From IMG/VR virus record IMGVR_UViG_2531839555_000011, positions 1 through 15,814 of that record: 15,814 nucleotides of DNA; one strand, given 5' to 3'. Positions 538 to 15,814 of the stretch are shown one piece after another. Numbering within the stretch: the first letter of the stretch is position 1; the number at the start of each line of letters is the position of its first letter. A model generated the notes under the pieces. It saw only the letters and a program-made list of their open reading frames with translations. It made no database searches and had not been told where the DNA came from. The DNA is from a virus (Duplodnaviria > Heunggongvirae > Uroviricota > Caudoviricetes). Made by a program: the position numbers and the translations under genes.

Positions 538-942
538 AAACTTTATATCCCACTGATTTTAATCAGTTAAATTAACAAACATGCCATGCATTTTAGCTAA
601 AAGTGATACACCGAGTGATATACGGATTATTGCACAAAGCCGAAAATATGCGAAAGCATGAGCACGGTAGAAAGGCGGCGAGTATAACAGTATTAAAAAG
701 CAAATTATGAATCTCTTATTGTATGAGACATCTATCCCACAATAACCCATTATCAGCATCCCCACGCATCATGCCCACCAGCGTGAAGCATTTTTCGCGG
801 GTATAAAAAATCGATGGAGCGGGCAGTCCGGAAGACGTCAGGGTACAGAGATTTGACCCGCCCCTCCCTGTGCATGAGCACAATAAGTAACCGAAGGCGG
901 AATTCCGCCCTCGGTACTCACATATGAGAAACGATATTTCTT

Positions 943-1063: not shown

Positions 1064-1193
1064 ATCAGTCAGGGAAATTTTGTAATTTCACGGAGGTTAA
1101 AATTCGAAGAGGCGGGCACTCCAAGAGATAAGAGACGGTAGGGATTTTGCTCCCCCTCCTGAATGCAATTTTTCGTATATATATACAAAACAG

Positions 1194-1211
1194 TGCGGGT
1201 TATGCGGGTTA
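1194..1211. repeat. Two tandem copies of TGCGGGTTA (reverse complement of TAACCCGCA)
   Basis: gTGCGGGTTATGCGGGTTAgcg read directly from the sequence; same 9-mer as the array at 1297-1348 in opposite orientation. Confidence 0.7.
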
Positions 1212-1296
1212 GCGAGTTATCTTCGCGTGCTAAGTATTTTTTATTATTTAATATCAATGCGTTGAAAAATAACATGTTCAAATGTTAGCCAAATCG

Positions 1297-1348
1297 TAAC
1301 CCGCAAGTCATTCAAAATAACCCGCAACCTCTCCCAAATAACCCGCAA
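1297..1348. repeat. Three direct copies of aaaTAACCCGCAA at 21-bp phasing (candidate protein-binding array)
   Basis: TAACCCGCAA at 1297-1306, 1318-1327 and 1339-1348, each preceded by an A-rich tract. The 21-bp period puts the sites on one face of the helix. Interpretation as integrase arm-type or excisionase sites is inference. Confidence 0.6.
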
Positions 1349-1376
1349 ACACATCAGGAAAGTGGGGCCAGTGATG

Positions 1377-1497
1377 CCACCGATCCCCTTTATTTGGGGA
1401 TCGCGAGTAAGCCCCAAAATCTGGGTGTTGCTCTTACTACCCAAACTACGGGTAGTTTCCGTAGTTTCATGGTCGAGTTGCAAATCTGCAACTCACC
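1377..1497. repeat. 121-bp structured direct repeat, copy B
   Basis: About 94% identical to 943-1063. Hairpins CGATCCCC-TTTATTT-GGGGATCG (perfect 8-bp stem), AAACTAC-GG-GTAGTTT and GAGTTGCA-AATC-TGCAACTC. Lies immediately right of the TAACCCGCAA array. Confidence 0.8.
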
Positions 1498-1833
1498 CAC
1501 CAGCCAACCCATTTTTGGGCCGTCGGGAATATCAACAAGTTAGCACAGAAATAACTCAGGCAGATACAAAACTCAATTTTGAGGTTTGCTTATTATTCAG
1601 TTGGTTAACATCCCTCAAAACTGAGGACTGTACCCAAAACTATTCTTATAGCTCCGGCCTCAGCCGTTGGCTTTTCCCGAAAATATCAGTCAGTTACGTT
1701 AACCGCTAATTTCTGCCTTTGGTGTGAATACTGTCGCTTTAACCTACGGTAATTGTTCTGCCTCGGTGCGTGTCACCGCCGTAACCGCGCCAGTAAAACC
1801 CACAGATTCGTGGTTTTCCTGAATATCAGGAAT

Positions 1834-9402: not shown

Positions 9403-9626
9403 CCTGTTCACCTTTTGATATTTTATCTTTTAATTCATAATGTTAAGGGGTGAACAGTTTCACAAAAACTATTCACCAACTGTTCACCACTGTTCACCCT
9501 TGAAGCTCAATAAACAATCAAAAAGGTGAACAGTGAATAGTTTGGTGAACAGTTCATAAATAACTGTTCACCCTATAATATACTGATACAAAAGATATTT
9601 ATGACAGGGTGAACAGTGGTGAACAG
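9403..9626. repeat. Iteron-type replication origin (9 copies of GGTGAACAG/CTGTTCACC)
   Basis: Exact 9-mers at 9403, 9449, 9480, 9490, 9525, 9544, 9564, 9608 and 9618 in both orientations plus partial copies, with an AT-rich tract at 9574-9606, immediately 3' of the primase-helicase gene. Confidence 0.8.
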
Positions 9627-9639
9627 TTATTCCATAAGT

Positions 9640-11457
9640 TTAATTTTTGCTATCGTCATTAGTGACCGATACACATGATGGCATCCAGTCTTCTGATTCC
9701 TCCGTCAGTGTCACGTTTGAACGCAAACCGTGCTTCGTTTTCCGTTTCATATACTCCCTGCCATATTCCGCCATTGCCCCCGGCATATCTTTACCGAAGC
9801 GCGTCAGTGTTACAGGTTTACCAAACCCATGTGCCTTCATATAAGCCAGATAGGCATGATAGAGATACCTGCGCGGGCTGAATGGCACAATTTCAGCATT
9901 ACCCACTAACAGGCCATCACACATTACCGACGCCATGAGATAGCCGCAGAAGTCCACCAGCGAATCCCCCTCTCGCTTTATCGCCAGTGCTTCTTCAGAT
10001 TTCTGCTGCTCATATAACAGGCGTCTGGCTTCGTCCTGGTCAGCAAACCGTGTAAGCAGATGGCGAATCACTACCGCCAGCTCACCTTCTATTTTTTCCG
10101 CCAGCATTGGATCACGTTCGTTCTCCGGTACAACTTCCGAAAAATTGAATATCACCCGACGACGTGAGATCCCCCCGCTGCGGTCACTGAATGACATGGC
10201 GTTATTGTTAACCGCCAGCACTACTGCCGGAATACGCGTTGAGTAGGGGGCTTTGTGTTTCGGGTCAATTGCCACCTTGTCACCGCCTGTAATAGCCTTA
10301 ATCCCTGCCCCATCACCAGCGTAGCGGGTCATATCCGGCATGATAATCAGCGAAAAGCCAACCACTAACGCGCGTTCCCTTGCATCTTCCAGCGCCTTCA
10401 TGCTTGCCGATACTGTGTTGGCCTTACCCGCCAGCATGGTGCAAATCTCCGCCATCACGCTTTTACCACTTCCCCCTGGACCTGTTACCTCAATGAATAA
10501 CTGCCAGTCGTACCGGTTCGCCAGCACCATGAATAATGCAGCCAGTACGCGATCCGCCTTGCGGTCATTCTCAGCCACCGAACGGCGTAACCACTTCCAG
10601 AAATTCGGCGCATGTGTTGCCAGCGTTTCCCCCTCTGCTGGTGGGCTGAAAGGTAATTCACTGGCAATTAACAACCAGTCGTTTTTGTTATGCTCCCGAA
10701 AATTACCTGTTCTGGTATCAAATACCCCGTTACTGAATCCAATCAGGTTACGGGCTGTATTCCCCATTACAGGCAAACTTAACTTCATGGTATCGACCGC
10801 CGATTTAATGGCGTTCTGCGAATAGCTGATCTCCGCATCAATGAAAATCTGCGCCATAGCTCGCTGTAATTCTTTATCCTGTACTGGCTCCCATACAACG
10901 CCGTTGTAATGGTGAACAGTGTCAGAGTCGGCATGAATCGCCAGTTCACCGCCATAATGTGCCAGGAGAACTTCGCCGCGTTGACTTGCTCCCATCTGGT
11001 TAAGCGCCAGTGATGAAGCGTTATCGTCTTTTACCCGCTCTTTTTTCTTTACAGGCAGTTCAACTACCTTTTTCTTTTCCGCCAGCTCTGCCCGTTCACG
11101 TTCCAGATATTCGCGCCAGTTCTCCCGTTTCTGGCTGTGCATTCCTTCAGAGTAATAATCAGCATCCCTGACACCTGCCGCTGCCAGTTTCTGCCCGATG
11201 GTATTAACAAGCCCCGGACGCAATAACCCCGCCTGATAGAGACGCACGCGATAGCGTCCGTCCGGTACGATTTGCAGGTTGTCCAGTTCGGCAAGTTGTT
11301 GCTCTCCAAGCCAGACAGGAGGCACGTTATCGCCAGCCAGTCGCCCGTCCTGTTCCTGCCACTGTTTCGCATGTGCCCACGCATCACTACCCGCAAAAAT
11401 GATGACTTCCGTCATTTTGTCACGCGGCTGGTGTTTTAAATTTGGCGCTTTTTTCAT
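9640..11457 (-). CDS. Replication initiator: primase / SF3 helicase
   Basis: Start at ATG 11457-11455 (MKKAPNLK...) with GGAGAG Shine-Dalgarno; Walker A GPGGSGKS and Walker B-like LIIMPD; about 605 aa. Domain architecture consistent with P4/PICI primase-helicases. Confidence 0.85.
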   Translation of the reverse strand: MKKAPNLKHQPRDKMTEVIIFAGSDAWAHAKQWQEQDGRLAGDNVPPVWLGEQQLAELDNLQIVPDGRYRVRLYQAGLLRPGLVNTIGQKLAAAGVRDADYYSEGMHSQKRENWREYLERERAELAEKKKVVELPVKKKERVKDDNASSLALNQMGASQRGEVLLAHYGGELAIHADSDTVHHYNGVVWEPVQDKELQRAMAQIFIDAEISYSQNAIKSAVDTMKLSLPVMGNTARNLIGFSNGVFDTRTGNFREHNKNDWLLIASELPFSPPAEGETLATHAPNFWKWLRRSVAENDRKADRVLAALFMVLANRYDWQLFIEVTGPGGSGKSVMAEICTMLAGKANTVSASMKALEDARERALVVGFSLIIMPDMTRYAGDGAGIKAITGGDKVAIDPKHKAPYSTRIPAVVLAVNNNAMSFSDRSGGISRRRVIFNFSEVVPENERDPMLAEKIEGELAVVIRHLLTRFADQDEARRLLYEQQKSEEALAIKREGDSLVDFCGYLMASVMCDGLLVGNAEIVPFSPRRYLYHAYLAYMKAHGFGKPVTLTRFGKDMPGAMAEYGREYMKRKTKHGLRSNVTLTEESEDWMPSCVSVTNDDSKN

Positions 11458-11753
11458 TTCTGCTCTCTCCACGCGGCAATCATGTTTTTCAGTTCCTGTA
11501 GTTTTTTATCAACATCCATACATGACACATGGTTATTTCTGGAAAGCGGGATTTCCCGCCGGAATCTGCAAATAAAGATCTCCACGTTCAGCGAACTATG
11601 AAATGAATAGCCATCACGAATAAAATAAACACGGTCAAACATCAGCTCTTTTACCGTTACTCTGTTACCGTTCTTATCCAGATAAATAGCGCCGGGGATA
11701 ATTTTTGGGTGTGCATAACCGCTGGCAGTCAAGCCAGATAAATATGTTCTCAT
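11454..11753 (-). CDS. Hypothetical 99-aa protein coupled to the primase
   Basis: ATGA overlap with the primase start. About 38% GC, lower than the element backbone. No family recognised. Confidence 0.55.
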   Translation of the reverse strand: MRTYLSGLTASGYAHPKIIPGAIYLDKNGNRVTVKELMFDRVYFIRDGYSFHSSLNVEIFICRFRREIPLSRNNHVSCMDVDKKLQELKNMIAAWREQK

Positions 11754-11759
11754 GATTAT

Positions 11760-12080
11760 TTATCCCCGATTTGAATCAGTATTCGCTTTCTTTATGGCAT
11801 TTAATGCATCTGTGGCATTATCAATGGTGCACCGTAACGAAATATCAAACTGCCCAAGCATTGCCAGTAACAAGCCAATATTCCCCATGTCAATGCGCAT
11901 AGCCTTTTCGTCATATTCCTCATTTTCTGACGCATACCACATCAGGTTACCAATTGACGCAACAGCCATTGATATATTGTCAGTAGCCGCATCCGCAGCA
12001 GAATAAACCTTTTTAGCAATATCATGCTCACAGTTAAAATGCGGATTAATCAGGTACTGGTAATTGGTCATGTCAGGCAT
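11760..12080 (-). CDS. Hypothetical 106-aa acidic protein
   Basis: Strong AGGGGGG Shine-Dalgarno before ATG 12080-12078; AT-rich coding sequence. No family recognised. Confidence 0.55.
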   Translation of the reverse strand: MPDMTNYQYLINPHFNCEHDIAKKVYSAADAATDNISMAVASIGNLMWYASENEEYDEKAMRIDMGNIGLLLAMLGQFDISLRCTIDNATDALNAIKKANTDSNRG

Positions 12081-12276
12081 GGCACCCCCCCTGACGAATA
12101 CGGGCGGCGAATACCATCACGCAGCCAGCCGGGGATTGCTGGCGTGCTTCCTGTTCGCTGGTGGCCTCAATGGTAATCACGCGCGGTTGTGCCGTGCTCA
12201 GGGCGATAAAACGCCAGATGTATTTATTCAGGTTGTGCGAGTCCCGCCCTTGCGGGTGTGTGGTATGATTTAACAT
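12073..12276 (-). CDS. Possible 67-aa first gene of the leftward operon
   Basis: Internal ATG 12276-12274 of a longer spurious ORF, preceded by GAGGT at 5-nt spacing; overlaps the start of the 106-aa gene by 8 nt. Composition unusual, so low confidence. Confidence 0.4.
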   Translation of the reverse strand: MLNHTTHPQGRDSHNLNKYIWRFIALSTAQPRVITIEATSEQEARQQSPAGCVMVFAARIRQGGCHA

Positions 12277-12312
12277 AGCTACCTCGATACTTCTGCTATC
12301 GTTGGTGGTTAG

Positions 12313-12356
12313 ACGCCCCGTTACTGCTCCTACAGTGCGGGGCGTTGTTTTTTGTG
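12313..12356 (+). terminator. Hairpin plus T-tract in plus orientation (leader structure or terminator)
   Basis: ACGCCCCG..ACTG..CAGT..CGGGGCGT followed by TGTTTTTTGTG. It lies in the 5' leader of the leftward operon and upstream of the Arc-like gene; function ambiguous. Confidence 0.35.
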
Positions 12357-12370
12357 TAATGGTAAGTACA

Positions 12371-12419
12371 ATGGTAATTACCATGTAACTATAGTAATTA
12401 AGGGTAATTACCATGTCAA
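12371..12419. promoter_or_regulatory. Palindromic operators overlapping divergent promoters
   Basis: ATGGTAATTACCAT (12371-12384) and GGTAATTACCAT (12403-12414) 30 bp apart, plus degenerate half-sites. On the minus strand TTGACA (12419-12414), a 17-nt spacer and TACTAT (12396-12391) form a sigma70-like promoter with the second operator inside the spacer. Confidence 0.5.
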
Positions 12420-12586
12420 CACCATTAGAGAAACGATCGCCACCATACCAAATGCGACTACCAGAAGAATTTAGAGCGCAACTTGAGGAGGCAGCCAAGG
12501 CAGACGGCGACACCTCATTAGCTACTTGGATTAAACGAATACTCCGCAAAGAATTACAACAGCGCGGTATCGAGCCCAAAGGCTGA
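12413..12586 (+). CDS. Arc/Mnt-like ribbon-helix-helix repressor (57 aa)
   Basis: Translated by hand: MSTPLEKRSPPYQMRLPEEFRAQLEEAAKADGDTSLATWIKRILRKELQQRGIEPKG. The P-x-Y/F-x-M/L-R-L/W-P...IxxRIxxxL pattern matches the P22 Arc beta-strand plus two helices. Too short for the 60-aa ORF track; only plus-strand gene in the element. Confidence 0.7.
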   Translation: MSTPLEKRSPPYQMRLPEEFRAQLEEAAKADGDTSLATWIKRILRKELQQRGIEPKG

Positions 12587-12680: not shown

Positions 12681-12709
12681 GGCGACCGCCCCCGGTCGCC
12701 TTTGTTTTA
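12681..12709 (+). terminator. Rho-independent terminator (possibly bidirectional)
   Basis: Perfect 8-bp stem GGCGACCG-cccc-CGGTCGCC followed by TTTGTTTTAT; lies between the converging Arc-like and ORF6N genes. Confidence 0.7.
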
Positions 12710-13390
12710 TGCGCGATCATGTGCCGCCTCCCACTCATATTTATCGAAATCAATCTGCCCCATCGCATCTACCAGCCGTACCGCCGGACGCAGAACTTTG
12801 AGTTCCTTCTTGCGGAGATTCATTCCATTACTGCCCTGTGAGCCATGAAACTGCTTAGAATGCTTGTCCGCACGAGTCACGGCGTTTTGCGCATCAGTAA
12901 CCGGCATGGCGATCAGTTCTTCGAGCGACGGCAGATCCACATGATGGAAAGTGACAAACTCCGGGCAACGGAAATAAGCTTTCACGAGCTGGCGCTGTAC
13001 CTGCCAGGCCAAATCATCGTTAAACGGTTTGGTCAGCAGCAGATAGCCTGATTCCGTAATCAGTGTTACGCGGCCACGTATCGGACTGTTCATTTTTTTG
13101 CCAGGGCGTTTAATGCCCCTGTCTAAATATCCAGCCCCTCCCCATTCGACCTCTGACGCGCCGACAATAAAAAAGTCCTCACCATCAATGAAGCGAGTGC
13201 GATTACGCTGAAAAGTCTTTTTAGCCGTGTCTTTAGGTCGCTGGTGCGCGGTATCGATCATTGCGAACGTCACCACGCGTTGCCCGTGAAATTCGACGGC
13301 AGGAAACTGTTTAAGCTGCACGCTAATATCGCTTTTACTGGCAACAGGGTGAGCGAATCCCTGCCCGTTAAGGGCATTAATATTTTTCAT
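12707..13390 (-). CDS. ORF6N-domain antirepressor-like protein
   Basis: 227 aa. N-terminal GQRVVTF..ID..HQRP...FQRNRTRFIDGEDFF ... TESGYLLLTKPFNDDLAWQVQRQLVKAYFR matches the ORF6N signature of phage antirepressors as I recall it. 20 nt downstream of the AlpA-like gene. Confidence 0.75.
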   Translation of the reverse strand: MKNINALNGQGFAHPVASKSDISVQLKQFPAVEFHGQRVVTFAMIDTAHQRPKDTAKKTFQRNRTRFIDGEDFFIVGASEVEWGGAGYLDRGIKRPGKKMNSPIRGRVTLITESGYLLLTKPFNDDLAWQVQRQLVKAYFRCPEFVTFHHVDLPSLEELIAMPVTDAQNAVTRADKHSKQFHGSQGSNGMNLRKKELKVLRPAVRLVDAMGQIDFDKYEWEAAHDRA

Positions 13391-13410
13391 CTCTGATTAC
13401 CTGTGGTTAA

Positions 13411-13695
13411 TTAAGCAGATTTGCGGCTGTACGGGTTATTGACGTTTTCCACGGCAGGCGGATTACGAACCCACCAGAGCACATCCGAAAGAAGCCAGGC
13501 ACAGCTGTTGCGGCCAAAGTGACAGCGCGGCGGGAAGCGCCCCTGCTGTTCCATCTTCCAGCGGCTCGAACGAGAAAGACTGGTGATCTCGCTGCATTCA
13601 TCTTCGCGGATTCGGCGATCGAACTTGAAGCCGTACTCCTCCAGAATGGTGCGGCGTTGTTCAGGATTTGGCGGGGTAAAGGTGATAATTTGCAT
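13411..13695 (-). CDS. alpA: AlpA-family regulator/excisionase-like protein
   Basis: Start at internal ATG 13695-13693 with GGAGG Shine-Dalgarno. C-terminal SLSRSSRWKMEQQGRFPPRCHFGRNSCAWLLSDVLWWV matches the AlpA helix-turn-helix pattern (LSRSTIYR..G.FP.P...G.R...W...E...W). Confidence 0.8.
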   Translation of the reverse strand: MQIITFTPPNPEQRRTILEEYGFKFDRRIREDECSEITSLSRSSRWKMEQQGRFPPRCHFGRNSCAWLLSDVLWWVRNPPAVENVNNPYSRKSA

Positions 13696-13790: not shown

Positions 13791-14594
13791 TTAAGGAAGA
13801 ATTTTTCTATCCTGAAGTTCTGACCTGATTTTTTCTATAGAAGAAATTGAGAAGATTTTTTCTATATTTGGCTTTACGGTTTGCGCTATCTGCGTTGAGT
13901 CATACTCTCCGTTCGGAAACACAGCCACAGCAAGCACGCCATTGGTGACGCATGCCCCGCGAGATTTAGCCCAGATCATCAAATCAACCACGGGGAAAAG
14001 TGAATAATCGTATACCTTTTTTTTAATTGTTTCCCATGACTGGTATGTTTTTTCCTTTTCTTTTATTTTTAATTCCTCACGCCAATTCTTGAGGTTTTTT
14101 TCAAACACATCAATCAATAAATCATCCGGGCGTGACAAATCAACTTTAATAAAAAGGTCATTTGGTTCCAAAAATGAGCTAACACTTGTAAATGAATGGT
14201 AAACTAAATTTTCAGCCGTTCCCGTAAAATTATTTTCCATATAATTATCTACAGCATCTTTCATATAAATAAAGTCTTCAATGGACATTGGTCGTAACGC
14301 AACCCCACCAGACAAAACACCTTCTCTTTTAATAGGAAGTTTAAACGCATCATAGAAGTACGTAGCTCTATCAATCGCATTAGCGACCGCGCCATTTCCA
14401 AGTATCCTTCCTACTTCATCGTTATTTGTAAGAGGTTCATTATAAAAAGACCCGCCATATCGATAGAAGTTTTCAAGCATGTCATATCTAACAACCAACT
14501 GATAAAATAAGTCTTTATCTGACATGCCAATAAATTGAGTGTAGTTATCTAAATCAAACCATGTTGGCAAATCTTTTTTGTGGCTAATTCTCAT
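13791..14594 (-). CDS. AT-rich 267-aa cargo protein of unknown function, coupled to int
   Basis: 804-nt ORF; 60-nt samples give about 25-45% GC against about 50% in int. ATG 14594-14592 overlaps the int stop as ATGA. No recognisable catalytic or DNA-binding motifs. Confidence 0.7.
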   Translation of the reverse strand: MRISHKKDLPTWFDLDNYTQFIGMSDKDLFYQLVVRYDMLENFYRYGGSFYNEPLTNNDEVGRILGNGAVANAIDRATYFYDAFKLPIKREGVLSGGVALRPMSIEDFIYMKDAVDNYMENNFTGTAENLVYHSFTSVSSFLEPNDLFIKVDLSRPDDLLIDVFEKNLKNWREELKIKEKEKTYQSWETIKKKVYDYSLFPVVDLMIWAKSRGACVTNGVLAVAVFPNGEYDSTQIAQTVKPNIEKIFSISSIEKIRSELQDRKILP

Positions 14595-15814
14595 TTTTCA
14601 CCAGCCTTTAAAATAACGATATTAGAGTGATTACCCGCGAGAAGTTCTAAGCGGTCATACCACTTGTTCAGCGCGTCCAGCTTCTCCGGTAAGTAAAGAC
14701 TACGGTTATAAATCGCCATAACTCCCGGCAAGGCATGGCCCAACAGCAGCTCGACTATATGCGGTGCTATACCCATATTGTTTAGCCCCGTAGAAAACGT
14801 CCGACGCAGATCGTGAAGTGTCCACGGCTCGTTATGGTGAAAATCTTTAAAAAGCCTGCGCCCTTTCAATGATACAGCCTGACGGGTACGATCTTCGCCC
14901 AGTAACAAACCTGTTTTCCCTGTCTCGCGCTTTAACTCTTCCAGCCACGGGCGTATAGCTTCAGGTATCGACCTCACGATTTTCTCTCGGGTTTTGCTAT
15001 GCTCTTTCGGTACAGTCCAAATCCACGATGTAAAATCCCACTCTGACCATCGAGAAAGGCGAACTTCCATCGTTCGCGCACCAAAAAGCACCAGCATTTT
15101 GAGCAGACGTGAATAATACGGCTGCTGATCATCGCTATCTGTACAGCGCCACACATCAGCCAGCTCGCTATCTGACAATACGCGATCACGTTGACCAGAT
15201 GGCTGGCCTACATCCTGAATGGTGAGAAAGGCCAGAGCATCACTGGCAGCATAACGGCGAACCTTGCAGAAACGTAACGCCTGTTTAGAAATCTGGAACA
15301 TGCGGCCGGCGGTCATGGGTTTAGTCTGGTTTATTTCGTCAAAACAGGCCACCCAATGGCGGGTTTCACATCTGGTGATCGGATAACGACCAAGGCGCGG
15401 GTAAATATGCTTGCGTAGCTGCGCCCTCACCAACGCCTCATCACTGCGCTTTCTCCTGGCGTAATTCACCAACCAATATTCCAGGGCGTCTTTAACCGTT
15501 ACAGGCTTAAGCGTTTCTTCTGTGCTCAGCTCAATCTCAGTTTTCGGATCAAGCCCACCAGCCAGCCACTGGCGACACTGTTCCCGCTTTTCTCGCGCAA
15601 GTTTTAGCGGCATATCAGGGTAACGGCCAAGCGTTAAACGTTCGAGTTTGCTACCCCTTCCTCCCAACCGGTATGAAAATACCCAGCTAACGTTACCTTG
15701 CTTCGAGACCTTAACGCTTAGCCCCTCACCATCGGCAATCATGATCGGCGCTTCACGCTCAGAACCCAGCAATGCTTTTAGCTTTTTGTCGCTCAGTTTG
15801 TTTGTGCCAGCCAT
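14591..15814 (-). CDS. int: Tyrosine integrase, P4-like family
   Basis: 407 aa starting at the window edge (ATG 15814-15812). N-terminal arm-binding-like region (GEGLSVKVSKQGNVSWVFSYRLGG...), C-terminal catalytic residues (HDLRRT, LLGHA, a Tyr near the C-terminus). Confidence 0.93.
   Translation of the reverse strand: MAGTNKLSDKKLKALLGSEREAPIMIADGEGLSVKVSKQGNVSWVFSYRLGGRGSKLERLTLGRYPDMPLKLAREKREQCRQWLAGGLDPKTEIELSTEETLKPVTVKDALEYWLVNYARRKRSDEALVRAQLRKHIYPRLGRYPITRCETRHWVACFDEINQTKPMTAGRMFQISKQALRFCKVRRYAASDALAFLTIQDVGQPSGQRDRVLSDSELADVWRCTDSDDQQPYYSRLLKMLVLFGARTMEVRLSRWSEWDFTSWIWTVPKEHSKTREKIVRSIPEAIRPWLEELKRETGKTGLLLGEDRTRQAVSLKGRRLFKDFHHNEPWTLHDLRRTFSTGLNNMGIAPHIVELLLGHALPGVMAIYNRSLYLPEKLDALNKWYDRLELLAGNHSNIVILKAGEK

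What the first reader, a model, noticed from the sequence alone, without database searches (positions are those of the whole stretch)
12707..13695. AlpA-like gene followed by an ORF6N antirepressor-like gene inside a satellite
The 227-aa protein carries a clear ORF6N signature, the domain found in phage antirepressors. It sits 20 nt downstream of the AlpA-like gene and converges on the Arc-like repressor gene. In a satellite, an antirepressor could derepress a resident helper prophage (as P4 does to P2) or counteract the element's own repressor; neither would be visible from annotation alone.
Basis: partly seen in the sequence, partly recalled or inferred. Interest (0 to 1): 0.55.

Follow-up and report, generated by a model that had tools for sequence, protein, structure and literature searches.

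The report
Swappable regulator gene in a phage satellite
The AlpA gene and the ORF6N gene are real and sit in a capsid-forming phage satellite of E. coli, but this layout has already been described in such satellites, "antirepressor" is only an inherited label, and the gene does not look like an antidote to the satellite's own repressor.

Summary
Observation confirmed. alpA lies at 13411-13695 (-). A 20-nt gap separates it from a 227-aa ORF6N gene at 12707-13390 (-), which converges on a 57-aa ribbon-helix-helix (RHH, Arc/YlcI-like) gene at 12413-12586 (+).

The element is a ~15-kb capsid-forming PICI at the hpt site. Its order is int, DUF6387, alpA, ORF6N, RHH, icd-like, primase, SSB, capsid, protease, portal, HNH, terminase.

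The ORF6N gene occupies the "Bro zone" described for Gram-negative PICIs in 2023. In sibling E. coli elements of this alpA lineage the same slot holds a Rha-like, an AntA or an unknown protein. All share a 23-aa N-terminal leader.

The protein has three parts: the leader, an ORF6N/KilA-N-type domain, and an ~80-aa helical C-terminal domain. That C-terminal domain matches no Pfam, PHROG or PDB entry and is not KilAC. It is absent from 50,697 phage genomes and found almost only in int-alpA-primase satellites of Enterobacterales.

Antirepression of the element's own repressor is unlikely. The same ORF6N protein pairs with four different RHH/operator cassettes, and a sibling uses C4/isrK RNA immunity instead.

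Action on a helper phage, by binding DNA or a phage repressor, remains plausible but untested. This is a new member of a known kind, of modest interest.

The parts
13411..13695 (-). alpA, 94 aa: AlpA/Vis-family regulator and excisionase. It is the first gene of the pair.
   Evidence: Pfam PF05930 E=5.3e-10. PHROG 2790 1.9e-39. 30% identical to P4 Vis/ORF88. GGAGG lies 6 nt before the ATG.
13391..13410 (-). 20-nt alpA-ORF6N spacer. It holds no terminator or promoter-like site, so the two genes are presumably co-transcribed.
   Evidence: Sequence. Scan. The spacer and the first ~65 nt of the next gene are conserved in sibling elements that carry a different downstream gene.
12707..13390 (-). 227-aa ORF6N-domain gene, the 'slot X' or Bro-zone gene.
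   Evidence: RefSeq WP_000789941.1 'ORF6N domain-containing protein'.
13322..13390 (-). Codons 1-23: slot-specific leader peptide MKNINALNGQGFAHPVASKSDIS. The model predicts it to be disordered.
   Evidence: It is shared by the Rha-like, AntA and unknown-domain proteins that occupy the same slot. L091 has 7 synonymous and 13 non-synonymous codon differences in the first 25 codons, while the invariant residues are kept. pLDDT <50.
12968..13297 (-). Residues 32-141: ORF6N (KilA-N/Bro-N superfamily) domain, with a variable loop at about residues 78-105.
   Evidence: Pfam residues 32-121. Family conservation runs on to YFR at 139-141. BFVD fold hits to KilA-N DNA-binding, antirepressor, Rha and Bro-N proteins, best E 3e-8. 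44-45% identical to ORF6N proteins of E. coli phages phi467, CharmingMan and Fraca over this part only.
12746..12943 (-). Residues 150-215: satellite-restricted C-terminal domain. Three predicted helices and an invariant motif S178-x3-H182-G183-x2-G186-S187-x2-M190-x2-R193-x2-E196...P202.
   Evidence: Alignment A1. Model helices 156-161, 164-179 and 187-211. No Pfam or PHROG hit. Only 9 cluster representatives among 1.84 billion proteins. No phage record covers it. Not KilAC. Only generic helical-bundle hits in the PDB.
12681..12700 (+). Intrinsic-terminator-like hairpin plus T-run for the plus-strand RHH gene. The minus strand has no T-run after it, so alpA-ORF6N transcripts are not predicted to stop here.
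   Evidence: Sequence.
12413..12586 (+). 57-aa ribbon-helix-helix (Arc/YlcI-YnfO-like) gene, convergent with ORF6N. Likely repressor of the icd-primase operon.
   Evidence: It is replaced together with its operators in otherwise 99.5-99.9% identical elements.
12371..12414 (.). Two copies of the palindrome (AT)GGTAATTACC(AT), at 12371-12384 and 12401-12414. Putative RHH operators.
   Evidence: Other RHH alleles come with their own repeats: TGGTACGTACCA, TGGTTCGAACCA, TGGTAAATACCA, AGGTGGTCACCT and GGTGTCAGCCAC.
12391..12419 (-). Promoter-like site TTGACA-17-TACTAT (10 of 12) facing icd and primase. It overlaps the palindromes and the RHH start codon.
   Evidence: The same TTGACA-at-RHH-start layout occurs in Erwinia, Tatumella, Rosenbergiella and Pantoea loci.
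12277..12350 (-). Structured 5' leader of the icd-like gene: two hairpins, the second abutting the Shine-Dalgarno sequence.
   Evidence: MFE z=-5.4. 76-81% nucleotide identity across genera. Compensatory changes in 16 sequences. No Rfam family, including C4 and isrK.
12073..12276 (-). Icd-like gene, first gene of the replication operon (then a 106-aa ORF, DUF4222, and primase at 9640-11472).
   Evidence: RefSeq annotation. PHROG 6196 1.9e-44. Primase is 51% identical to the C-terminal part of P4 alpha.

Best explanation
**What it is.** The 227-aa gene is the variable 'slot X' (Bro-zone) gene of an hpt-integrated capsid-forming PICI. It is made from the same helper-activated transcript as AlpA. 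There is a 20-nt spacer and no terminator between them, and no minus-strand terminator before the icd-primase operon.

**How the protein is built.** It has three parts:
- a 23-aa leader peptide common to every alternative gene in this slot;
- an ORF6N (KilA-N/Bro-N-type) nucleic-acid-binding domain;
- a small helical C-terminal domain found almost only in satellites.

**How it most likely works.** I think it is a trans-acting regulator directed at a phage partner rather than at the satellite's own immunity. The ORF6N domain would bind DNA. The C-terminal helices would provide oligomerisation or a partner contact. Swapping of the whole domain block between sibling elements would retarget the satellite to different helper or competitor phages.

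**Shown versus inferred.** Shown: gene identity, co-orientation and spacing, slot variability, the shared leader, satellite restriction, and independence from the RHH allele. Inferred: co-transcription, DNA binding, and a phage-directed target.
For: - **Identity and context:**
- **Published framework:** Gram-negative PICIs have four zones, Integration (int, AlpA), Bro, Replication and Late. ORF6N is listed among the Bro-network Pfams and hpt among the integration sites (PMC10111431).
- **Slot variability:** 25 of 5426 E. coli genomes carry this alpA lineage. The next gene is ORF6N in 12, 'hypothetical' (Rha-like or unknown) in 11, AntA in 1, and none under the match in 1.
- **Shared leader:** M1, I4, A6, L7, G9, G11, H14, P15, S18, D21 and I22 are invariant across ORF6N, Rha-like, AntA and unknown-domain proteins. 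The most divergent member also carries synonymous changes.
- **Fold class:** the best BFVD hits are KilA-N DNA-binding, antirepressor, Rha and Bro-N proteins.
- **Satellite restriction:** all four diverse homologues looked up individually, and at least 17 of 20 genome loci with full-length relatives, carry int and alpA upstream and a primase downstream. No phage record covers more than 75% of the protein.
- **Independence from the element's own repressor:**
- **No minus-strand terminator between ORF6N and icd:**
- **AlpA biology:** AlpA is the helper-induced master activator in these elements, according to bioRxiv 10.1101/2022.09.08.507074 and PMC11773190.
Against: - There is no experimental datum on this protein or on any ORF6N protein.
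- DNA binding is inferred only from the fold superfamily. No solved structure matched, and the model is of moderate quality (mean pLDDT 66, pTM 0.43).
- No candidate binding sites were identified.
- The gene is rare, in 12 of 5426 complete E. coli genomes, so it is dispensable for the satellite life cycle as such.
- The same data fit a protein-binding antirepressor equally well on most points.
Confidence: 0.4

Rival explanations
1. Helper-prophage antirepressor, like P4 epsilon or P1 Ant. The protein would bind the immunity repressor of a resident temperate phage and induce it. This would give the satellite a helper, or for a capsid-forming PICI a source of tails.
For: - The PHROG families matching the N-domain are labelled anti-repressor.
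- The same N-domain is fused to KilAC in phage-type proteins such as P0112.
- An alternative occupant of the same slot carries the AntA domain named after the P1/P7 antirepressor.
- In most other genera the family member lies between the immunity element/icd and the primase. That is the position of ant in the P1 c4-icd-ant operon (my knowledge) and of epsilon in P4.
- cf-PICIs often need a second phage for tails (bioRxiv 10.1101/2025.02.11.637232).
Against: - It has no KilAC domain and no similarity to P4 epsilon.
- No ORF6N protein has been shown to bind a repressor.
- In this window the gene sits behind alpA, whose expression needs an already induced helper. Derepressing that same helper would be redundant.
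- The C-terminal domain is absent from phages.
Confidence: 0.25
2. Antirepressor of the satellite's own Arc/YlcI-like repressor. After AlpA activation the protein would strip the RHH protein from its operators and open the icd-primase operon.
For: The gene converges on the RHH gene. The RHH palindromes overlap the promoter of the replication operon, so some way of relieving repression is needed.
Against: - An identical or near-identical ORF6N protein is paired with four different RHH/operator cassettes. Two of them lack the ...GIEPKG tail altogether.
- A sibling element with the identical AlpA and the same leader on its slot gene uses C4/isrK RNA instead of an RHH.
- In Erwinia, Tatumella, Providencia, Pantoea and Rosenbergiella loci the family member lies downstream of the RHH-controlled promoter.
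- Only 13 of the 1674 E. coli genomes that match any part of this regulatory region carry the ORF6N gene.
- Read-through from alpA could bypass the repressor without any antirepressor.
Confidence: 0.05
3. Accessory interference or toxicity gene. It would be a Kil/Rha-like protein that harms competing phages or arrests the host during induction, with no regulatory role in the satellite cycle.
For: The gene is rare and sits in a recombination hot spot. P4 encodes Kil in the equivalent region, and Bro-network genes there are multifunctional (PMC10111431). PICIs commonly carry anti-phage cargo (PMC13612085).
Against: No PADLOC defence-model hit. The cargo and defence slots described for PICIs are elsewhere. 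The leader peptide conserved across all slot occupants argues for a role integrated with the element.
Confidence: 0.15
4. Selfish or decaying mosaic gene. It would be a product of Bro-network domain shuffling, kept only by linkage, with no present function.
For: The breakpoints are sharp: the window/L002 homology block ends inside the gene at about window 13325 and at the RHH cassette. Bro-network domains have been linked to homing-endonuclease-like mobility (PMC10111431).
Against: Full-length architecture, with many invariant residues in both domains, is conserved down to ~45% identity across at least ten genera. The reading frame is intact in all 12 E. coli copies, with at most 2 substitutions in the five copies compared.
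Confidence: 0.05

Closest known systems
'Bro zone' of Gram-negative PICIs (Mageeney et al. 2023, NAR Genom Bioinform, PMC10111431)
   Same: The position is the same: directly after int/alpA and before the replication genes. ORF6N is one of the ten Bro-network Pfams listed there. Domain swapping between siblings, hpt as an integration site, and immunity RNAs (C4/isrK) in the same zone are all seen here in the window or its siblings.
   Different: From the passages I read, that paper gives no function for any ORF6N member. I saw no mention there of the shared 23-aa leader, the satellite-restricted C-terminal domain, or the RHH/operator cassettes that can replace the RNA immunity.
Satellite phage P4 left operon: vis (ORF88), eta/kil/CI RNA, epsilon, orf151, orf106, alpha
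   Same: An AlpA-family gene (30% identical) is followed by a Bro-network gene, then an immunity element, then a primase (51% identical over the C-terminal part). [quoted passage not shown]
   Different: The window has no epsilon homologue, no CI/C4 RNA and no sid/delta/psu. This element makes its own capsid. Its immunity element is a protein (RHH) and not an RNA.
Phage P1/P7 immI operon c4-icd-ant (my knowledge of the literature)
   Same: An Icd-like gene preceded by a structured leader lies in the same regulatory region as an 'ant-like' gene. In other genera the order is immunity element, icd, small ORFs, ORF6N.
   Different: In this window the ORF6N gene is upstream, in the alpA transcript, and not downstream of icd. 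It has no AntA or KilAC domain, and the window has no C4 RNA.
Phage ORF6N-KilAC 'antirepressors' (for example Acinetobacter P0112, Fusobacterium phage Fnu1) and ORF6N proteins of E. coli phages phi467, CharmingMan and Fraca
   Same: The N-terminal domain is 44-53% identical.
   Different: The C-terminal halves are unrelated. The phage proteins lack the leader. They are themselves uncharacterised.
cf-PICI EcCIEDL933 and relatives (Alqurainy et al., bioRxiv 10.1101/2022.09.08.507074; He et al., bioRxiv 10.1101/2025.02.11.637232); E. cloacae cf-PICIs (PMC13612085)
   Same: The element class is the same: int, alpA, primase, then capsid, protease, portal, connector, HNH and TerS/TerL, about 15 kb. 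[quoted passage not shown]
   Different: Here the slot gene is ORF6N with a different C-terminus. None of those papers tests the slot gene or the YlcI/YnfO gene.
PLE CapR of Vibrio cholerae (as cited in PMC10111431)
   Same: It is a satellite-encoded Bro-network protein that acts in trans on the helper, by repressing the helper capsid promoter. This is the only functional precedent for this gene class in a satellite.
   Different: No sequence relationship was tested or is claimed. The satellite family and domain composition are different.

Membership tests
Pfam ORF6N (PF10543) | Score above the curated gathering threshold | tested here: met
   45.3 bits against 27.8, E=1.1e-11, residues 32-121 on model positions 4-85 of 86.
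Phage antirepressor of the KilAC/Ant type (P1 Ant-like) | C-terminal KilAC/ANT domain (PF03374) | tested here: not met
   No Pfam hit at E<=10 for residues 140-227. hhalign of the C-terminal profile against the KilAC part of P0112 gives 0.2% probability.
Phage antirepressor of the KilAC/Ant type (P1 Ant-like) | Physical binding to, and inactivation of, an immunity repressor | not testable with these tools
   Needs pull-down, two-hybrid or induction assays.
Phage antirepressor of the KilAC/Ant type (P1 Ant-like) | Expression held in check by the immunity system (C4-type antisense RNA upstream, as in P1 immI) | tested here: not met
   No C4 or isrK in the window at E<=10. The gene lies in the alpA transcript, upstream of the immunity element. 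A sibling, L002, does carry C4 and isrK.
P4 epsilon (helper derepression protein) | Sequence similarity to epsilon | tested here: not met
   tblastn of P4 epsilon against the window gives only a 27-aa match at E=0.079, outside any gene of the element.
Bro zone of Gram-negative PICIs (PMC10111431) | A gene with a Bro-network Pfam domain, located between int/alpA and the replication genes and co-oriented with them | tested here: met
   ORF6N is one of the ten listed Pfams. Order is int 14591-15814, alpA 13411-13695, ORF6N 12707-13390, primase 9640-11472, all on the minus strand.
Bro zone of Gram-negative PICIs (PMC10111431) | Domain swapping between related elements | tested here: met
   In siblings with the same or closely related AlpA (WP_001165816.1 itself in L002), the slot holds Rha-like, AntA or unknown domains behind the same leader.
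Capsid-forming PICI (cf-PICI) | int + alpA + primase, plus its own capsid, protease, portal, connector, HNH, TerS and TerL; about 15 kb; flanked by att repeats | tested here: met
   RefSeq annotation of L001. Window ORFs. 19-bp direct repeat 14,528 bp apart in L001.
Capsid-forming PICI (cf-PICI) | Induction by a helper phage and transfer using helper tails | not testable with these tools
   Experimental. Shown for EcCIEDL933 and not for this element.
AlpA family (PF05930) | Score above the gathering threshold, and position just downstream of int | tested here: met
   39.5 bits against 21. One gene (DUF6387) lies between int and alpA.
Arc/RHH repressor (the neighbour gene) | Pfam or NCBIfam score above the curated cutoff | tested here: inconclusive
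   Arc 16.9 bits against 20.4. YlcI_YnfO_N 19.1 against 30. PHROG 228 at 3e-07. Alleles in siblings hit HicB or RHH_1.
Arc/RHH repressor (the neighbour gene) | Cognate palindromic operators overlapping a promoter | tested here: met
   Two GGTAATTACC palindromes overlap TTGACA-17-TACTAT. Each protein allele has its own repeat sequence. Binding itself was not tested.

The most novel reading that the evidence does not exclude
The proteins in the slot after alpA would form a modular family of helper-specific antirepressors. A constant 23-aa leader would plug into the satellite's own machinery (AlpA or a host factor), and an exchangeable domain block, here ORF6N plus the satellite-only C-terminal domain, would recognise the immunity repressor of a particular temperate phage. 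On induction or entry, a capsid-forming PICI would then switch on a second, co-resident prophage to obtain compatible tails. That would explain how these elements find the two-phage help recently described for them.
Probability: 0.1. Interest if true: 0.7.

Novelty: new member of a known kind. Interest (0 to 1): 0.33.

Why it matters
How Gram-negative PICIs and capsid-forming PICIs sense, and act back on, their helper phages is still largely unknown beyond the statement that the helper turns on alpA.

The gene after alpA is the most variable regulatory gene of these elements. That makes it a good candidate for a determinant of helper specificity.

This window gives a clean natural experiment for testing that idea:
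- the same ORF6N protein sits next to four different repressor/operator cassettes;
- the same AlpA sits in front of four different slot proteins.

If the slot protein proves to be a helper-directed regulator or antirepressor, it would add a second satellite-to-helper signalling route beside P4 epsilon.

As it stands, the finding is an uncharacterised member of an already described gene class.

Tried and rejected
- **Enzymatic or known C-terminal domain.** Pfam at E<=10, PHROGs at E<=1, PADLOC and NCBIfam found nothing.
- **PDB by sequence.** Only a chance laccase hit, E=0.08.
- **C-terminal domain as a divergent KilAC.** Rejected: hhalign probability 0.2%.
- **C-terminal domain joined to other N-domains elsewhere.** An exhaustive phmmer search of 1.84 billion representatives gave 9 hits, all of this family or fragments of it.
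- **C4/isrK immunity RNA in the window.** Absent, although both are present in sibling L002.
- **tRNA at the integration site.** None; the site is beside hpt.
- **P4 epsilon, orf106, the cI ORF, sid, delta or psu homologues in the window.** None.
- **Literature.** I found no functional study of ORF6N, or of YlcI/YnfO as a satellite regulator.
- **Not attempted.** Complex prediction with RHH or CI proteins (the tool takes single chains only). Correlation of slot type with resident prophage repressors across genomes.
Full report

Yes. On the minus strand an ATG at 13695, preceded by GGAGG, opens a 94-aa ORF ending at 13411. It matches Pfam Phage_AlpA at E=5.3e-10 (39.5 bits, cutoff 21) and PHROG 2790 'excisionase and transcriptional regulator' at 1.9e-39. 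Exactly 20 nt further on (13391-13410) an ATG at 13390 opens a 227-aa ORF ending at 12707. This ORF matches Pfam ORF6N at E=1.1e-11 (45.3 bits, cutoff 27.8, residues 32-121). It also matches nine PHROG families, eight of them labelled anti-repressor, the best at 3e-33. All of those matches cover only the first ~150 residues.

On the plus strand a 57-aa ORF at 12413-12586 converges on it. This ORF is Arc/RHH-like, but below the curated cutoffs: Arc 16.9 bits against 20.4, and YlcI_YnfO 19.1 against 30. PHROG 228 'Arc-like repressor' gives 3e-07.

**2. What is the element?**

An almost identical copy in E. coli strain 3150 (L001, 99.5-99.9% identical apart from two replaced segments) lies between hpt and gcd. 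RefSeq annotates it as integrase, DUF6387, HTH regulator (AlpA), ORF6N protein, YlcI/YnfO protein, Icd-like, hypothetical, DUF4222, primase, SSB, major capsid, prohead protease, portal, connector, HNH, small terminase and large terminase. A 19-bp direct repeat, AGTGATACACCGAGTGATA, flanks it. It lies at window 602-620 and again just past int in L001, 14,528 bp apart.

This is the gene content and size of a capsid-forming PICI as defined for EcCIEDL933 (bioRxiv 10.1101/2022.09.08.507074). [quoted passage not shown]

**3. The arrangement is already described.**

Mageeney et al. (PMC10111431) divide Gram-negative PICIs into Integration (int, AlpA), Bro, Replication and Late zones. [quoted passage not shown] ORF6N is one of its ten Pfams, and hpt is one of the two major chromosomal sites. 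[quoted passage not shown] EcCIMP1 is drawn with an 'antirepressor' (PMC11773190). None of these papers tests such a gene. I found no experimental paper on an ORF6N protein.

**4. Anatomy of the protein.**

An alignment of 32 full-length relatives, down to about 42% identity in Enterobacterales, shows three parts.

(i) Residues 1-23, MKNINALNGQGFAHPVASKSDIS, are absent from most distant relatives and are modelled as disordered.

(ii) Residues ~30-141 form the ORF6N domain. Conservation continues past the Pfam model, to ...LAWQVQRQLVKAYFR, and there is a length-variable loop at about residues 78-105. The AlphaFold model (mean pLDDT 66) finds KilA-N DNA-binding, antirepressor, Rha and Bro-N proteins in BFVD, with a best E of 3e-8. 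It finds nothing significant in the PDB.

(iii) Residues ~150-215 form three predicted helices with an invariant S178-x3-HG-x2-GS-x2-M-x2-R-x2-E motif. This domain has no Pfam or PHROG match and is not KilAC. It occurs in only 9 of 1.84 billion representative proteins, all from this family or fragments of it. In 50,697 phage genomes no record covers more than 75% of the protein, and none matches beyond residue 177.

It is a small helical module specific to satellites.

**5. Where the family lives.**

All four diverse homologues that I looked up lie in int, AlpA..., primase islands. They come from Proteus, Serratia, Erwinia and Tatumella. Of 20 species-representative genome loci with full-length relatives, at least 17 show int and alpA upstream and a primase downstream.

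The gene takes two positions.
- In E. coli, Klebsiella, Raoultella and Serratia it directly follows alpA. In Serratia it overlaps alpA by 8 nt.
- In Erwinia, Tatumella, Providencia, Pantoea, Rosenbergiella and others it lies further down, between icd and the primase. There a different Bro-network gene (Bro-N, AntA or Rha) follows alpA.

**6. The slot after alpA is a swap site with a constant leader.**

Only 12 of 5426 complete E. coli genomes carry this ORF6N gene. This alpA lineage occurs in 25 genomes. The next gene is ORF6N in 12, 'hypothetical' in 11, AntA/AntB in 1, and in one genome no downstream gene lies under the match.

Of the siblings I fetched, L002 and L089 have Rha-like proteins, L090 has a protein with no Pfam match, and L091 has an AntA protein. 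All five proteins share the leader: M1, I4, A6, L7, G9, G11, H14, P15, S18, D21 and I22 are invariant. After that they diverge completely.

In the most divergent case (L091) the first 25 codons carry 7 synonymous and 13 non-synonymous differences, while the invariant residues are kept. The peptide itself therefore appears to be under selection, not merely the DNA used as a recombination anchor. I have no explanation for what the leader does.

**7. The neighbouring repressor module, and why ORF6N is probably not its antidote.**

Two copies of the palindrome GGTAATTACC (12371-12384 and 12401-12414) overlap a strong minus-strand promoter-like site, TTGACA-17-TACTAT (12419 to 12391). The promoter points at the icd-primase operon. 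The RHH start codon lies inside the second palindrome.

Between the window and L001 the only internal replacement is 12344-12565, which is exactly the RHH gene plus its operators. L001 has a different RHH protein and TGGTACGTACCA repeats. Other alleles carry their own repeats: TGGTTCGAACCA, TGGTAAATACCA, AGGTGGTCACCT and GGTGTCAGCCAC. This co-variation is what an immunity-type repressor/operator pair looks like. Sibling L002, which has the identical AlpA protein, has no RHH gene. It has Rfam C4 (82 bits) and isrK (66 bits) at the same place.

Three observations argue against ORF6N being an antirepressor of this RHH protein.
- ORF6N proteins with 0-2 substitutions sit next to four different RHH cassettes. 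Two of those cassettes lack the ...GIEPKG tail.
- Slot genes with the same leader exist in an element whose immunity is RNA-based.
- In most genera the family member lies inside the repressed operon.

No minus-strand terminator is predicted between the ORF6N stop and icd. The hairpin at 12681-12700 has its T-run on the plus strand only. AlpA-driven transcription could therefore simply read through, antisense to the RHH gene, into the replication operon. That is an inference.

**8. Comparison with P4 and P1.**

P4 Vis (ORF88) is 30% identical to this AlpA, and P4 alpha is 51% identical to the C-terminal part of the primase. There is no homologue of epsilon, orf106, sid, delta or psu.

The ORF6N gene occupies the position of P4 eta. 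PMC10111431 calls eta a Bro-network gene that is translationally coupled to the alpA homologue. In the genera where the family member follows icd, the order resembles P1 c4-icd-ant (my knowledge) and P4 cI-epsilon-alpha. This resemblance is the best argument for a helper-directed antirepressor.

**9. Verdict.**

The interpretation rests on a domain label. The most defensible statement is that this is a rare allele of the variable Bro-zone gene of a cf-PICI, expressed with AlpA on helper activation and directed at a partner outside the element's own immunity system.

I favour a DNA-binding, helper-directed regulator (0.4) over a helper-repressor-binding antirepressor (0.25). The fold class is a nucleic-acid-binding one, and the only functional precedent in a satellite (PLE CapR) is a DNA-binding repressor. 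The data do not separate the two. An own-repressor antirepressor is unlikely (0.05).

Novelty: a new member of a known kind. Interest is modest. The leader peptide, the satellite-only C-terminal domain and the RHH/operator cassettes are the parts worth following up.

Noticed in passing
window 12344-12565 (RHH gene 12413-12586, palindromes 12371-12414, promoter-like site 12391-12419); L001 14345-14584; L094; L095: The Arc/YlcI-like gene and its palindromic repeats behave as an exchangeable immunity cassette. Otherwise near-identical elements carry four different RHH proteins, each with its own repeat sequence overlapping the icd-primase promoter. A sibling (L002) has C4 and isrK RNAs there instead. 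I found no paper describing a protein repressor for Gram-negative PICIs, or YlcI/YnfO in that role.
   Followed up: partly
window 12277-12350, minus strand: The 5' leader of the icd-like gene is conserved at 76-81% nucleotide identity across genera. It folds into two hairpins (z=-5.4), the second abutting the Shine-Dalgarno sequence. In 16 sequences there are compensatory changes, for example CGAUA/UAUCG to CGUUA/UAACG in 6 of them. It matches no Rfam family, including C4 and isrK.
   Followed up: partly
window 13322-13390, minus strand (codons 1-23 of the ORF6N gene): A leader peptide of the form MxKIxALxGxGxxHPxxSxxDIS is shared by unrelated proteins (ORF6N, Rha-like, AntA, unknown) that occupy the slot after this alpA lineage. 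It is conserved at the protein level and predicted to be disordered. Its function is unknown.
   Followed up: partly
window 13791-14594, minus strand: A 267-aa DUF6387 gene (E=4.4e-29) overlaps the end of int and sits between int and alpA. Siblings carry other genes of 216-309 aa there. Several related loci have the Rfam int-alpA RNA (RF02996) in this interval, but the window has no match. No defence-model hit.
   Followed up: no
window 9466-9626: A dense array of direct and inverted GTTCACC-type repeats lies just downstream of the primase gene. It shows up as spurious microRNA hits in Rfam and is probably the replication origin iterons.
   Followed up: no
window 1070-1821, with a 121-nt direct repeat at 943-1063 and 1377-1497: About 750 bp near the hpt-proximal end of the element are absent from the otherwise identical L001. 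The segment includes a 94%-identical 121-nt direct repeat. It may be a local duplication or insertion downstream of the terminase genes.
   Followed up: no
L093 714-950 (E. coli 47-1826): In the one complete genome that has the same RHH allele as the window, a partial HNH endonuclease pseudogene is inserted between the RHH operators and icd. This hints at homing-type mobility at this junction.
   Followed up: no
window 11760-12080, minus strand: A 106-aa ORF between icd and DUF4222 matches PHROG 15327 end to end (1.3e-69) but has no Pfam domain. It is the same length as P4 ORF106 but shows no detectable similarity to it.
   Followed up: partly
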